DNA of 64,000 bases from Flaccisagitta enflata. Lineage: Eukaryota. Shown piece after piece: positions 20,025 to 61,718 of the stretch (its first letter is position 1; each line of letters starts with the position of its first letter). Both the position numbers and the translations under genes were made by a program. The notes below the pieces were generated by a model that had not been told where the DNA came from, made no database searches, and saw nothing but the letters and a program-made list of their open reading frames with translations. The stretch spans positions 29,636,001-29,700,000 of the forward strand of contig OZ231126.1 in the NCBI GenBank assembly GCA_965153355.1, in the 5' to 3' direction.

Positions 20025-23000
20025 ATGAATAACTCTCTCTTTGACGCTGAAGAGGATAAGGAGAATGTCAACAACTCTCTAAAGGCCGGTCTCAATTCTG
20101 GACGGGAGCCATTCGCGGTGAAAACCAATGAGGTTTGTGGGTTTGTGTATTTCATTGACTCATTTTGCTTTTTGCTTCTCTTTGCAGAAAATTTTCTTTG
20201 TAAATATGTGGGTTACATATTGTTGCACATGTCATATAACTCCTTAGATATTTGCGTACATGTCTATACTTTTATACATAATATCTGGCAGGATACACGA
20301 TTTTTTCACGAGCTCGAAAAAATTCTCATTTTTGCTTATGAATGTTGCCTTTATTGCTTCAGACAAAATCGAATAAGATCAAAAACATGAAACATTCCTG
20401 GGTAATTTCAGGAGAAACCAACCAAATCATAAAACCCTCAAATCATAGAATTTGCTTATTTTTGGTGTACAGGTGAATCCTGGGAAGTTATTAACAGATC
20501 CTGAATCTTTTTGTTTTACGACCAATATTTCAGATTTTACCGCCATTTAAAATTTTGGAAATTTTAGGAAATTTTTGGAATTTTGCAATGTTTGAAAGGT
20601 CATAACTCCAATAGTATTTTTAGAAAAGAGGTGATCTTGGTATTAATCTACTAGGTTTAACCCAGAGAATCTATTGGAGCAAAAAAATTTTTTGAAAAAA
20701 GTTGATATGATAGTTTTTTTGCCTATGCGGGGCCATTTTGGGTACCCCTAGGTACGATGAAATTTGGTAAAACATTTGGAAAAAATTCTAAAATGTTTTT
20801 TGATTCATATCCAAAAGAAAAAAAATGGCCCTTTTTCTCAAAGATACTGAATGGATCAAAGTTGACTTCTTTGAATCTTGGCCCTGATTGGCTGTTTGAA
20901 CCAACGCTGACCAATCAGGAGCCAGGATCCAAAGGACTCGACTTTGACCCCTTATTTCAGTATCTTTGAGAAAAAGGGCCATTTTTTTTCTCTTGGATAT
21001 GAATCAAAAAACATTAAAGAATTTTTTCCAAATATTTTATTACCAAATTTCATCGTACTAGGTACCTAGGGGTACCCAAAATGGCCCCGCATAGGCAAAA
21101 AAACTATCATATCAACTTTTTCAAAAAAATTTTTGCTTCTTAGATTCTCTGGGTTAAACCTAGTAGATTGATATCAAGATCACCTCTTTCCTAAAAATAC
21201 TATTGGAGTTATGACCTTTCAAACATTGCAAAATTCCCAAAATTTCCTAAAATTTCCAAAATTTCAAACTGCTGTAAAATCTAAAATATTGGTCGTAAAA
21301 CGAAAAGATTCAGGATCTGTAAATAATTTCCCAGGGCACACCTGTACACCAAAAATAAGCAAAATCTATGATTTAAGGGTTTTATGATTTGGTTGGTTTC
21401 TCCTGAAATCACCCTCCTCATGCAAATCAATGTAAAATTACCAGAAAAACTTAAACCACTTTAGATACTTAATATAACCTATTATTAGATAGATTTTCAG
21501 ATGCGGATTTCACGGCTAAAACGCCTATGGGAAGTTTTTTAATTCGTTTTATTTCGATTGATTTGAATCCGAAGGCGAACCCTTTCAAAATTCCAACAAT
21601 AGCCACAGAAAAATTTATACCCTGGCGTTGCTAGGTCAAGTGGTGAAAAAGTCTAAAAAGAAGCAACCAAAATGGGACAAAACCGTGTAAAATGTGTTAA
21701 AACCATGTAAAGTACACAAGGAACTACATCTTATATTTAATATTAGGGACATATGGTTCCTCACCAGCAGTAGTGAGGCATCTAAAGCTGTAGCTCTACT
21801 GGCACAATATAATCCAGACAGATGTTATGCAAGTTATATATTCCTGTATGTATACCTAAAAGAAGTGACAAACATGGATGAGTTTCTTTTCTTTTTTTTC
21901 TTCCTTTTTTTGGCAAAAAGTATTGTTTTGAAAGTACTTTTGTTCAATAATTAAGGCTGAATATGCTACTTAGCAAATTAAGGCTGAATATGCGTTAGTA
22001 ACCCGGCCATCCTCCTTGCCACCCCCGCCACATGCACAAGTTATTCAGTGACCAAGTTATTTCTTCTCGGTTTTGATATAAGGAACTTTTTTTTTCAGAA
22101 TAATCGTCCAGAAACTGTGCTTGACTTTTCGGATTTGCCCGAAGAAAGACAGAAAAGATACACGAAACTGTTGGAAAAATCGAAAGCTTTGGTCCAAGAT
22201 GGAGAAATCAAAGGAGCTTTGGTCAAGCTGGAAAGAGCCTACGAAATTTTCAACTCAGACAAAATCGAAAGGAGAATTGCGAAATATCGGGCCTACTTGG
22301 CCGATAAAGGTATTACTTGATTAGGTGGTGCTCTGGGCGTTTTTCCAACTATTGATAGTTGCAGTTGCAGCGTGACTTCGCGTTGGGAAACGGATTCGGC
22401 GGAAAAGGAAAAAAAAAATAGAAAAGAAGACATGGCTAATCATGGCTATCATCTAGTGCGTGTATCCGGGATTGAGAGAAACTGTTATATTAAGGACGCA
22501 TAATGGAAAAGCTCCATTGGCGTGGGGGGGAGGGGTGGGGAGGCGTGGGGGGAGGGGTGGGGAGGCGTGGGGGGAGGGGGAGGGGAGGGGGGAGGCGTGG
22601 GGAGACGTTGGGGGAGGGGTGGGGAGGCGTGGGGGGAGAGGAATCAGTTTATATTTTCCTCTTTATCTCTGAATCTTTATATTATCATATTTTTATATCT
22701 TAATATCTTTATATGTTGCACTGCACAGGAACAGCAAATTTGGAAAATCGGTTCGCGTGAAATTCTTAATCTCTCTCTGAAAGTAAAATTTACATTTTTA
22801 AGAACATGGCCCCTTTCTTATACGTCTTTAGAACAGGGCCATGTTTTTAGAAATGCAAATTTATGCATTCAGAGACAGATTAAGAATTTCACGTAAGACA
22901 ATTCAAGGAATGGAGATTAATTTTCTTTTTTTTGTCCTTGACGATCAGTTTACGTCGAGGACTATAACATAGCATTGATCGTGTAGTGAGTCGTTGTTCG

Positions 23001-59900: not shown

Positions 59901-61718
59901 CCAACCAGCCTATCAGCCTAAAAGTGAAAAACGTGCATAACTTTGGTATTTTTCAACGGATTTGGTTAAAACTTGGTATGTAGTCTCTAAATGGAAGGAC
60001 TCAACATATGTATTTGATTTGTAAAGATTTTAGCATGCAAACCGGCCTACCACCCAACCAGCCTACCAGCCTAAAAGTGAAAAAGGTGCATAACTTTGGC
60101 ATTTTTCAACCGATTTGGGTGAAACTTGGTATGTAGTCTTTAAATGGAAGGACTCATCATATGTATTTGATTTGTAAAGATTTTAGCATGCTAACCGGCC
60201 AAACTGGCCTACCACCCAACCAGCCTAAAAGTGAAAAAACTTGCATAACTTCGGCATTTTTCTACCAATTTGGTTAAAATTTGGTATGTAGTCCCTAAAT
60301 GGAAGAACTCAACATATGTATTTGAATTGTAAAGATTTTAGCATGCTAACCGGCCAAACCGACCTACCACCCAACCAGCCTACCAGCCAAAGTGTCAAAA
60401 CGTGCAAAACTTTGGCATTTTTCAACCGATTTTGTTAAAACTTGGTATGTAGTCTCTAAACGGAAGGACTCAACATATGTATTTGATTTGTAAAGATTAT
60501 AGCATGCTAACTGGCCAAACCGGCCAAACTGCCATTTGACAACGCCGTTTGACAACGCCGTTTGACAACGCCGTTTGACAACGCCGTTTGACAACGCCGT
60601 TTGACAACGCCGTTTGACAACGCCGTTTGACAACGCCGTTTGACAACGCCGTTTGACAACGCCGTTTGACAACGCCGTTTGACAACGCCGTTTGACAACG
60701 CCGTTTGACAACGCCGTTTGACAACGCCGTTTGACAACGCCGTTTGACAACGCCGTTTGACAACGCCGTTTGACAACGCCGTTTGACAACGCCGTTTGAC
60801 AACGCCGTTTGACAACGCCATTTGACAACGCCGTTTGACCCCAGTCGCGGACCCATACTCTTTTAAGATTTTTTCTCTCTTTTTTTCTCTCTTTTTCTCT
60901 TTTTTTTCTCTCTTTTTTTCTCTTTATTTCTCTTTATTTCTCTTTTTTTCTCTCTTTCTTTCTCTCTTTATTTCTCTCTTTATTTCTCTCTTTATTTCTC
61001 TCTTTCTATCTCTCCATCTCTCTTTCTATCTCTCTTTCTATCTCTCTTTCTTTCTCTCTTTCTTTCTCTCTTTCTTTCTCTCTTTCTTTCTTTCTTTCTC
61101 TCTTTCTTTCTCTCTTTCCTTCTTTCTCTTTCTTTCTTTGTCTCTTTTTTTCTCTTTCTTTCTCTCTTTCTTTCTTTCTCTTTCTTTCTTTGTCTCTTTC
61201 TTTCTCTTTCTTTCTTTGTTTCTATCTTTCTTTGTTTATCTCTTCCTTTCTTTCTTTCTTTGTCTTTCTGTCTTTCTTTCAATACGTCTTTTCCACTCAT
61301 TCGGTCATCTCGTTCTGTCCCTGAAATAAATGAAACCCTACCAGATGTACATTCGCGATCCCCAAATTCACTCTCTCACTCCGCCGTCTAGGTCCGTCTT
61401 CCTTTTCTGCGTTCTTGGTTCCGAACTCGTTCGGCCATCGTCCTTCATCTCTCCAACGGCACGCTACAAGTCAACTTCTTCCAGGATCACTCGAAGATCA
61501 TCTTGGAGCCGACGATGTCCTCTGTGTCGTACATCGACGAGGCTCGAAACTTCCGTGTTTTCCGGCTCTGCAGCCCTCCGGAAGCGCAAGAGCTCGCCAT
61601 CTCAAAGACGGGCGCTTCCACGCAGCTGCTGCAGAGGCTGCGCTACGCCAAGACCATGGTCGAGAGGCTGCAGTCTACCAGGTCCACTTCCGCCAGAGTC
61701 AAGACCCATTTACCATGA
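56957..61718 (+). CDS. PLK1: Polo-like kinase 1 / polo, 5 exons, 620 aa
   Basis: Exons 56957-57225, 57454-57667, 57950-58167, 58370-59204, 61392-61718. [71 protein letters not shown]-box-like RRVLSVKN, polo box 1 [18 protein letters not shown], polo box 2 [29 protein letters not shown]. Confidence 0.95.
59535..60870 (+). mobile_element. Helentron/HINE-like element family C, copy 2, in PLK1 intron 4
   Basis: Same termini, ~152-162-bp units and 13-bp array (60531-60839) as 188-1980. Confidence 0.75.

What the first reader, a model, noticed from the sequence alone, without database searches (positions are those of the whole stretch)
20025..61718. PICH-RCC1-PLK1: a compact, co-oriented cluster of three mitotic genes (candidate mitotic operon or co-regulated unit)
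Seen: three genes head-to-tail with stop-to-start spacers of 732 bp (48908-49639) and 815 bp (56142-56956). I find no repeats in these spacers, while the introns and the ~10-kb GNMT-ERCC6L gap are full of them, which implies constraint. Known: PICH is the PLK1-interacting checkpoint helicase, a binding partner and substrate of PLK1; RCC1 makes the chromatin RanGTP gradient; the human genes are unlinked or far apart. Inference: unrelated genes of one mitotic process have been brought together, either as a polycistron resolved by SL trans-splicing or as a coordinately regulated cluster.
Basis: partly seen in the sequence, partly recalled or inferred. Interest (0 to 1): 0.82.

Follow-up and report, generated by a model that had tools for sequence, protein, structure and literature searches.

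The report
Mitotic gene operon in arrow worm
In what is almost certainly an arrow-worm (chaetognath) genome, the cell-division genes RCC1 and PLK1, and perhaps the PLK1 partner PICH just upstream, lie nose-to-tail as one of that phylum's already known leader-spliced operons, so the grouping is real but of a familiar kind.

Summary
An ERCC6L/PICH-type helicase gene, RCC1 and PLK1 lie head-to-tail on the + strand. The stop-to-start spacers are 732 and 815 bp, at the stated coordinates, and both are repeat-free while the long introns are not.

Public marine metatranscriptome contigs explain spacer 2:
- RCC1 RNA runs on as a 3'UTR of about 500 nt, to 56640-56652.
- One PLK1 contig starts at 56653, directly after an AG.
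- That contig carries 26 non-genomic letters identical to the 3' end of the Flaccisagitta enflata spliced leader SL3.1/3.2 (Table 3, PMC2481426).

So the organism is a sagittid chaetognath and PLK1 mRNA is leader trans-spliced. RCC1 and PLK1 have the architecture of a chaetognath operon, with 0-12 nt between the upstream RNA end and the downstream acceptor.

Three things remain open:
- Co-transcription is inferred. No contig bridges the junction.
- The ERCC6L-RCC1 spacer could not be tested.
- Whether the mitotic grouping is selected or accidental is unknown. No relative's genome could be searched.

Operons hold about 18% of genes in Paraspadella gotoi (PMC12460157). This is therefore a new member of a known kind, and of moderate interest.

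The parts
4569..4682 (+). Exon of a glycine N-methyltransferase gene (context only; co-oriented upstream neighbour)
   Evidence: phmmer against PDB matched 7 sequences, all GNMT, E about 1e-7, chain residues 40-68. Found with a recalled SAM-binding motif used as a regex.
20025..48907 (+). ERCC6L/PICH-type SNF2 helicase gene, about 29 kb, many exons and repeat-rich introns. The start at 20025 is unverified. Homology-mapped exons run 22129-43521. The last coding exon lies in ORF 47744-48907.
   Evidence: SNF2-rel_dom in 3 ORFs and Helicase_C in 2. Most named rows among the best 120 listed are 'ERCC-6-like'. 11-13 collinear tblastn segments to 3 mollusc ERCC6L proteins, including 56-70% identity just after the helicase domain. 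Stop TAA at 48905-48907.
21988..22317 (+). ORF holding the N-terminal TPR exon of ERCC6L
   Evidence: blastp hits in 89 of 120 ERCC6L proteins, at their residues about 30-110, best E 2e-12.
48716..48904 (+). C-terminal TPR-like end of ERCC6L
   Evidence: blastp hits in 21 of 120 ERCC6L proteins at E<=1, best 4.5e-4. The best rows lie at the subjects' extreme C-termini. Weak match, E 0.52, to the PDB 5jno_B ERCC6L C-terminal fragment.
48908..49639 (+). Spacer 1 (ERCC6L stop to RCC1 ATG), 732 bp, repeat-free. Its transcript structure was not tested.
   Evidence: AATAAA at 49287 and 49603.
49570..49571 (+). Candidate (unproven) trans-splice acceptor AG for RCC1
   Evidence: The run X2 RCC1 contig has 447 nt before exon 2. 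That means a start at 49545 if collinear, or about 26-27 leader letters plus an exon starting at 49572. It is the first AG after the last upstream ATG at 49562. Indels are common in these contigs, so this is a lead only.
49640..56141 (+). RCC1 coding region, 4 exons: 49640-49996, 53190-53318, 54914-55031, 55174-56141 (523 aa)
   Evidence: Joints in contigs of 3 runs. The exon 1 end was located. Relatives map to the same 4 exons. Open frame with GT..AG introns. Pfam.
56142..56650 (+). RCC1 3'UTR, continuous with the spliced RCC1 coding sequence in the contigs. It ends at 56640, 56650 or 56652.
   Evidence: Contig pieces X1 record 1, X2 record 6 and X3 record 9.
56651..56652 (+). AG of the PLK1 trans-splice acceptor (ttgctcttacag|TGG). 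The leader is joined to 56653.
   Evidence: X2 record 7 starts at 56653 with 26 loose letters before it. These equal the last 26 nt of F. enflata SL3.1/3.2 and have 0 matches in the window at up to 3 mismatches.
56653..56956 (+). PLK1 5'UTR downstream of the leader, 304 nt, free of ATG
   Evidence: 0 ATG against a mean of 3.47 in shuffles, P(0)=0.025. The ATG-free gap of 346 nt is one of 14 gaps of 340 nt or more in the window.
56957..61718 (+). PLK1 coding region, 5 exons: 56957-57225, 57454-57667, 57950-58167, 58370-59204, 61392-61718 (620 aa)
   Evidence: Joints in contigs. The last exon was located. Open frame with GT..AG introns. Pkinase and POLO_box. PLK1 scores well above PLK2 in PDB.
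61719..62696 (+). PLK1 3'UTR, minimum extent. Contig lengths put the ends at about 62627, 62683 and 62696 if collinear.
   Evidence: Record lengths. The ends fall inside the palindrome, so they may be assembly breaks and not RNA ends.

Best explanation
The window comes from a sagittid chaetognath (arrow worm). ERCC6L/PICH, RCC1 and PLK1 are adjacent co-oriented genes.

RCC1 and PLK1 form a spliced-leader-resolved operon of the kind already described for this phylum. RNA polymerase reads through from RCC1. The RCC1 mRNA is cut and presumably polyadenylated at about 56640-56652. The PLK1 message is released by trans-splicing of the capped 33-nt leader (form SL3) onto the acceptor at 56652|56653. 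This yields a PLK1 mRNA with a 304-nt, ATG-free 5'UTR.

ERCC6L may be the first gene of the same unit, with RCC1 trans-spliced near 49571|49572. That step is open.

Shown:
- gene identities and exon models;
- the leader-to-PLK1 junction;
- RCC1 RNA abutting the acceptor.

Inferred:
- a single precursor and promoter;
- membership of ERCC6L;
- any functional reason for the grouping.

My estimates are about 0.95 that PLK1 is SL trans-spliced, about 0.7 that RCC1 and PLK1 are co-transcribed, and about 0.45 that all three genes form one unit.
For: Leader junction:
- The 26 loose letters on the PLK1 contig (X2 record 7), joined at 56653 after 'cag', are identical to the last 26 nt of F. enflata SL3.1/3.2.
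- They are absent from all 64 kb on both strands at up to 3 mismatches.
- The two published variants differ at the 27th letter from the 3' end. That is a natural place for a de Bruijn contig to stop (my inference).

Abutting RNAs:
- RCC1 contigs of 3 runs run from the spliced coding sequence through the stop codon. They end at 56640 and 56650. A separate piece ends at 56652.
- In X3 the last 220 nt have a higher depth (30) than the RCC1 body (13). This fits a stable 3' end better than an outron.

Published precedent:
- The S. cephaloptera RPS14-PCNA operon has 3 bases between the poly(A) site and the acceptor (passage seen).
- P. gotoi operons are defined as genes less than 250 bp apart with a leader. 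10,197 of 21,072 genes are trans-spliced and 18% are operonic (passages seen).

Other support:
- The PLK1 5'UTR has 0 ATG in 304 nt (P=0.025), while the 511 nt before the acceptor has 7.
- Both spacers are free of repeats, as expected of UTRs.
- RCC1 has no named relative above 38% identity but has unnamed transcriptome relatives at 65-72%. This fits a poorly sampled marine phylum.
- The stretch is held by 6 marine metatranscriptome runs from 2 studies.
Against: - The leader junction is seen in one contig of one run. The PLK1 contigs of X1 and X3 begin further in, at 56758 and 56877, with no leader.
- No contig bridges 56652|56653 (0 of 3 runs), so a polycistronic precursor is not shown.
- The tool itself warns that contigs cannot show RNA ends, and that a contig across two genes shows no single transcript.
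- No canonical AATAAA lies within 30 nt of 56650. The only one in spacer 2 is at 56307. Part of the RCC1 mRNA may therefore end about 340 nt earlier, leaving room for an internal PLK1 promoter.
- The raw-read run X7 laid 0 reads and is no test.
- Spacer 1 was not examined at all.
- About 30% of chaetognath genes are trans-spliced without being operonic, so a leader alone does not prove an operon.
Confidence: 0.7

Rival explanations
1. Three separate transcription units. PLK1 (and RCC1) have their own promoters inside the spacer or the upstream gene's 3'UTR. The leader merely trims an outron, as for the many chaetognath genes that are trans-spliced but not operonic. The closeness of the RCC1 RNA end to the acceptor is overlap or coincidence.
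For: In P. gotoi more genes are trans-spliced than are operonic: 10,197 trans-spliced against about 18% in operons. No bridging contig was seen in 3 runs. An AATAAA at 56307 could end RCC1 early. Stop-to-start distances of 732 and 815 bp are far larger than the intercistronic gaps usually quoted.
Against: RCC1-linked RNA covers the whole interval up to 0-12 nt from the acceptor in 3 runs. In X3 the depth there is higher than over the RCC1 body. Once the measured UTRs are taken off, no untranscribed DNA is left between the two mRNAs. The same layout is the published hallmark of a chaetognath operon.
Confidence: 0.22
2. The operon is real, but the mitotic theme is accidental. Operons in this phylum collect broadly expressed, germline and proliferation genes, and three such genes ended up adjacent without selection for joint function.
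For: Operonic and trans-spliced genes have low cell-type specificity and dominate the germline markers in P. gotoi. With about 1,500 operons, some functionally themed ones are expected by chance (my rough reasoning, not computed). No paper held all four search terms that would describe this linkage.
Against: PICH was discovered as a direct interaction partner and substrate of Plk1 (abstract and passages of PMC3401297). A specific pair is rarely adjacent by chance, of the order of 1 in 10,000 for any named pair (my estimate).
Confidence: 0.6
3. Artefact. The leader-PLK1 junction is a chimeric assembly, or the 26 letters are a cis-spliced 5' exon lying outside the window.
For: Only one contig shows it. 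Metatranscriptome assemblies do produce chimeras.
Against: There is an exact 26 of 26 match to a published leader, joined precisely behind a polypyrimidine-AG acceptor. The sequence is absent from 56 kb upstream. The 5'UTR downstream of the junction is ATG-free.
Confidence: 0.03

Closest known systems
RPS14-PCNA operon of the chaetognath Spadella cephaloptera (Marletaz et al. 2008, PMC2481426; passages and Table 3 seen)
   Same: Co-oriented genes. The downstream mRNA carries a chaetognath leader ending in GTTTAAA. Practically no DNA lies between the upstream RNA end and the downstream acceptor: 3 nt there and 0-12 nt here.
   Different: Different genes, a different family (the sagittid SL3 form) and much longer UTRs (about 509-nt 3'UTR, 304-nt 5'UTR). 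Here the poly(A) site itself is not seen, only contig ends. A possible third, 29-kb intron-rich gene lies upstream.
Genome-wide operons of Paraspadella gotoi (Piovani et al. 2025, PMC12460157; passages seen, supplements closed)
   Same: Meets their working definition: neighbours less than 250 bp apart, measured between transcripts, with at least one leader-bearing gene. The genes are of the proliferation and germline type.
   Different: Their enriched categories are nitrogen and protein metabolism. A mitotic-regulator operon is not mentioned in the passages read. I could not check whether P. gotoi has this gene order.
Ciona and Oikopleura operons without intercistronic regions; C. elegans SL2 operons (recalled, apart from the remark in PMC2481426 that the chaetognath distance is even shorter than in Ciona operons)
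   Same: A polycistron resolved by leader trans-splicing coupled to upstream 3' end formation.
   Different: The leaders and lineages are unrelated. C. elegans uses a dedicated SL2 and spacers of about 100 nt. No operon-specific leader is known in chaetognaths.
Human ERCC6L (PICH), RCC1 and PLK1
   Same: Orthologous domain sets. ERCC6L has TPR, SNF2 ATPase and a C-terminal TPR. RCC1 has the RCC1 beta-propeller. PLK1 has a kinase and two polo boxes.
   Different: In human the three genes lie on different chromosomes (X, 1 and 16; recalled) and are transcribed separately. Here ERCC6L has many introns.

Membership tests
Spliced-leader-resolved operon (chaetognath type) | Adjacent genes on the same strand | tested here: met
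   ERCC6L, RCC1 and PLK1 are all on the + strand and head-to-tail.
Spliced-leader-resolved operon (chaetognath type) | The downstream gene's mRNA carries the phylum's leader at a 3' splice acceptor | tested here: met
   PLK1: 26 of 26 letters match F. enflata SL3.1/3.2, joined at 56653 behind 'cag'. Seen in 1 contig, in 1 of 3 contig runs. RCC1: inconclusive, geometry only.
Spliced-leader-resolved operon (chaetognath type) | Very short distance between the upstream mRNA 3' end and the downstream acceptor (less than 250 bp in P. gotoi; 3 nt in S. cephaloptera) | tested here: met
   RCC1 contigs end at 56640, 56650 and 56652 and the acceptor is at 56652|56653. Caveat: contig ends are not proven RNA ends. 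ERCC6L to RCC1 was not tested.
Spliced-leader-resolved operon (chaetognath type) | One promoter and a polycistronic precursor | not testable with these tools
   0 of 3 contig runs bridge the junction. The raw-read run laid 0 reads. No further lay was allowed.
Spliced-leader-resolved operon (chaetognath type) | SL RNA genes elsewhere in the genome | not testable with these tools
   No genome is held. The leader is absent from the window. Rfam gave 0 matches.
ERCC6L / PICH | SNF2 ATPase closest to ERCC6L rather than to other SNF2 subfamilies | tested here: met
   Most named rows of the 120 listed are 'ERCC-6-like'; the top two are plant CHR24. Collinear with 3 mollusc ERCC6L proteins. In PDB, which showed no ERCC6L ATPase chain among the hits, ERCC6 is best. 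No tree with ERCC6 and ERCC6L2 was made.
ERCC6L / PICH | TPR motifs at the N and C termini | tested here: met
   N-terminal: 89 of 120 subjects. C-terminal: 21 of 120, best E 4.5e-4, at the subjects' extreme ends. 5jno_B gave E 0.52. The C-terminal evidence is weak.
ERCC6L / PICH | CDK-primed S-T-P docking site for the PLK1 polo-box domain (T1063 in human; PMC3401297) | tested here: inconclusive
   One S-T-P (LASTPM) lies in ORF 46394-46894, out of 8 C-terminal ORFs scanned. Exon status is unknown and a 3-residue motif is expected by chance.
RCC1 | Seven-bladed RCC1-repeat propeller, orthologous to the regulator of chromosome condensation | tested here: met
   WD40_RLD 4.2e-54 and RCC1 repeats. 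Named best hits are RCC1 of insects and vertebrates at 34-38% identity.
PLK1 (polo) | N-terminal Ser/Thr kinase plus two polo boxes, closer to PLK1 than to PLK2 or PLK3 | tested here: met
   Pkinase and 2 POLO_box exons. Polo-box exon: PLK1 175-177 bits, PLK2 78 bits.

The most novel reading that the evidence does not exclude
A function-selected 'mitosis operon'. One promoter upstream of ERCC6L drives a single precursor about 42 kb long. Leader trans-splicing turns it into PICH, RCC1 and PLK1 mRNAs, so a kinase, its docking partner and substrate, and the RanGEF are made in step in dividing and germline cells. The linkage would be kept across chaetognaths despite their scrambled genomes. This would be a rare animal example of an operon that unites direct interaction partners.
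Probability: 0.15. Interest if true: 0.65.

Novelty: new member of a known kind. Interest (0 to 1): 0.42.

Why it matters
Biologically it adds a concrete, well-mapped chaetognath operon junction outside the ribosomal and housekeeping examples, with the acceptor, both UTRs and full gene models.

If the link to PICH and the conservation hold, it would bear on an old question. That question is whether animal operons only pool 'always-on' growth genes or can also couple functionally interacting proteins. The test is simple: gene order in other chaetognath genomes, and long-read RNA.

Tried and rejected
- Whole genome: none is held. The genome-wide spacing distribution and SL RNA genes could not be examined.
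- Rfam on the window: 0 matches. ARAGORN: 0 tRNA genes.
- The raw-read run X7 laid 0 reads. This is no test.
- JGI metagenome scans:
  - A degenerate pattern of the RCC1 start found 0 stretches.
  - An RCC1 alignment found 80 loci, but the best was only 39% identical. None was a chaetognath-like relative and none was used.
They may show whether P. gotoi has this operon.
- A search for longer homologues of the ERCC6L C-terminal ORF found none.
- Pfam on 135 ORFs of the flanks and PLK1 introns found 0 families at E<=0.001.
- Earlier findings of this scan: nothing on this genome or on look-alikes. A word search gave only an unrelated rotifer case.
- Literature:
  - 0 papers hold a 15-letter piece of the leader.
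  - 2 papers hold operon, spliced leader, mitotic and polo together. Going by title and abstract start only (not opened), neither concerns such an operon.
  - 0 papers hold ERCC6L, RCC1, PLK1 and synteny together.
- A shared TTTTATC lies 20 and 34 nt before the two (candidate) acceptors. I considered it as a 3'-end signal, but two cases prove nothing.
- I considered and rejected a distant cis 5' exon and a chimeric contig as sources of the 26 letters (see rivals).

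
Full report
**What is in the sequence**

The window is eukaryotic, at 34-48% G+C. The finding's coordinates are exact:
- The long ERCC6L-type ORF ends with TAA at 48905-48907, and the RCC1 ATG is at 49640.
- The RCC1 TAG is at 56139-56141, and the PLK1 ATG is at 56957.
- The spacers are therefore 732 and 815 bp.

Pfam identifies the following:
- RCC1 repeats in 49625-50029 and 55164-56141.
- A kinase exon in 57695-58171.
- Polo boxes in 58251-59249 and 61392-61718.
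- SNF2 and Helicase_C exons between 24.8 and 42.7 kb, in 5 of 136 ORFs scanned.

**ERCC6L**

The first SNF2 exon finds 481 proteins at E<=1e-8. Most named rows among the 120 listed are 'DNA excision repair protein ERCC-6-like'. The two best rows are plant CHR24. Three mollusc ERCC6L proteins align collinearly in 11-13 segments from 22129 to 43521.

An N-terminal TPR exon matches 89 of 120 ERCC6L proteins. The last ~55 residues of ORF 47744-48907 match the extreme C-termini of invertebrate ERCC6L proteins (21 of 120 subjects at E<=1, best 4.5e-4). They also match the PDB fragment 5jno_B weakly, at E 0.52. The 387-residue ORF before spacer 1 therefore belongs to the helicase gene.

The proposed first exon at 20025 has no homology support (0 of 120).

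The PLK1 polo-box exon scores 175-177 bits against PLK1 chains and 78 bits against PLK2.

**Repeats**

None of the 69 tandem-repeat rows lies in a spacer. By self-BLAST, 0% of either spacer recurs in the window. The figures are 15-96% for five long introns and 37% for the upstream gap.

**RNA evidence**

Six marine metatranscriptome runs from two studies hold 5-33% of the sampled words of 48000-57999.

Contigs of three runs give the RCC1 joints. The exon 1 end was located at 49962-49991. The final model is 49640-49996, 53190-53318, 54914-55031 and 55174-56141, or 523 aa.

They also give the PLK1 joints. The last exon was located. The model is 56957-57225, 57454-57667, 57950-58167, 58370-59204 and 61392-61718, or 620 aa. 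All introns are GT..AG and both frames are open.

RCC1 contigs continue past the stop codon and end at 56640 (X1) and 56650 (X2). A separate X3 piece covers 56432-56652 at depth 30, against 13 for the RCC1 body.

The X2 PLK1 contig starts at 56653, directly behind ttgctcttacag. It has 26 letters in front that do not lie on the stretch: AATTTCTACTACTTCACTTGTTTAAA. These letters occur nowhere in the 64 kb at up to 3 mismatches.

**Identity of the 26 letters**

Table 3 of Marletaz et al. 2008 (PMC2481426; passages and the table seen) lists the Flaccisagitta enflata leaders SL3.1 and SL3.2 as GGAAGC[C/T]AATTTCTACTACTTCACTTGTTTAAA. The 26 letters are its last 26. The two variants differ at the next letter, which is a natural place for a de Bruijn contig to stop (my inference).

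This leads to two conclusions:
- The organism is a sagittid chaetognath.
- PLK1 mRNA is SL trans-spliced at 56652|56653.

This fits RCC1 having unnamed transcriptome relatives at 65-72% identity but no named relative above 38%.

**Operon reading**

The same paper describes the S. cephaloptera RPS14-PCNA operon, with three bases between the upstream poly(A) site and the downstream acceptor.

The P. gotoi genome paper (PMC12460157; passages seen) gives these figures:
- 10,197 of 21,072 genes are trans-spliced.
- 18% of genes are in operons.
- An operon is defined as neighbours less than 250 bp apart with a leader.
- Operonic genes have low cell-type specificity and are prominent among germline markers.

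Measured between transcripts, RCC1 and PLK1 are 0-12 nt apart, so they qualify. Spacer 2 is thus entirely UTR: a 3'UTR of about 509 nt, the AG, and a 304-nt 5'UTR. This explains why it is clean of repeats.

The PLK1 5'UTR has no ATG, against a shuffle mean of 3.47 (P=0.025). The 511 nt before the acceptor have 7.

**Limits**

- The junction is seen in one contig of one run. The PLK1 contigs of X1 and X3 start at 56758 and 56877 without a leader.
- No contig bridges the junction (0 of 3 runs).
- Contig ends are not RNA ends.
- The raw-read run laid nothing.
- There is no AATAAA near 56650. One at 56307 could end some RCC1 mRNAs earlier.
- Co-transcription is therefore inferred, not shown.

**Spacer 1**

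Spacer 1 was not tested. The only hint is that the X2 RCC1 contig has 447 nt before exon 2. That places its start at 49545 if collinear. Alternatively it would be about 26-27 leader letters joined behind the AG at 49570-49571. That AG is the first after the last upstream ATG, at 49562. Indels are frequent in these contigs, so this is a lead only.

Two scans of JGI metagenomes gave nothing usable.

**Function and chance**

[quoted passage not shown] Plk1 docks at CDK1-primed T1063 (PMC3401297; abstract and passages seen). One S-T-P lies in a probable C-terminal exon here, which proves nothing.

That the human genes are unlinked is recalled, not tested.

I could not test conservation of the gene order:
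- No genome is held for this window, and the collections the tools scan are described as prokaryotic genomes, metagenomes, viral contigs, phages, plasmids and E. coli.
- The supplements with the P. gotoi operon lists were closed.
- No paper held the four terms ERCC6L, RCC1, PLK1 and synteny together.
- Of the two papers holding operon, spliced leader, mitotic and polo together, neither concerns such an operon, going by title and abstract start only.

With about 1,500 operons enriched for proliferation and germline genes, a themed operon may arise by chance. This is my reasoning and was not computed.

**Verdict**

This is a real, well-mapped RCC1-PLK1 operon junction of the known chaetognath type. 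Membership of ERCC6L is possible, and functional selection is unproven.

Noticed in passing
window 4569-4682 (+): An exon of glycine N-methyltransferase, on the same strand as the three mitotic genes. Its other exons and its end were not mapped, so the size of the GNMT-ERCC6L gap is unverified.
   Followed up: partly
window 62598-63221: A near-perfect palindrome: two 310-nt arms, 93% complementary and 4 nt apart. It looks like a foldback or MITE-type element and lies in or just after the PLK1 3'UTR. All three PLK1 contigs appear to stop inside its first arm, so the true PLK1 3' end is unknown.
   Followed up: partly
window 418-1949 and 59738-60839: The same composite satellite occurs at the window's start and inside PLK1 intron 4. 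It is a unit of about 153-162 bp repeated 5 times, followed by a 13-bp unit repeated 24-53 times.
   Followed up: no
window 39221-40292: A 291-bp unit in 3.6 tandem copies inside an ERCC6L intron. By eye, its consensus holds a tRNA-like stretch (…GGTTCGAATCC…; recalled resemblance), suggesting a tRNA-derived SINE. ARAGORN calls no tRNA in the window.
   Followed up: partly
window 53100-59400: Contigs from three metatranscriptome runs differ from the window at 22 listed single-letter places and 5 indel places in 6.3 kb. This fits the strong polymorphism reported for chaetognath populations (PMC2481426 abstract).
   Followed up: no
window 54366-54594 (RCC1 intron 2): Low-depth contigs in X1 and X3 cover this intronic stretch and then run on into unrelated sequence (loose ends at 54590 and 54594). 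This is probably a repeat transcribed elsewhere.
   Followed up: no
window 46394-46894 (+): The ORF holds the only S-T-P motif (LASTPM) among 8 C-terminal ERCC6L-region ORFs. It is a possible counterpart of the human PICH T1063 docking site for PLK1. Exon status is unknown.
   Followed up: partly
window 49531-49537 and 56626-56632: TTTTATC lies 34 and 20 nt upstream of the candidate RCC1 acceptor and the proven PLK1 acceptor. It could be a 3'-end or trans-splice signal, or it could be chance.
   Followed up: no
window 19991-20027: A short upstream ORF (ATG at 19991) ends in a TGA that overlaps the proposed ERCC6L start codon at 20025. An AG at 20008-20009 could be an acceptor that removes it. 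No RNA data were available.
   Followed up: no
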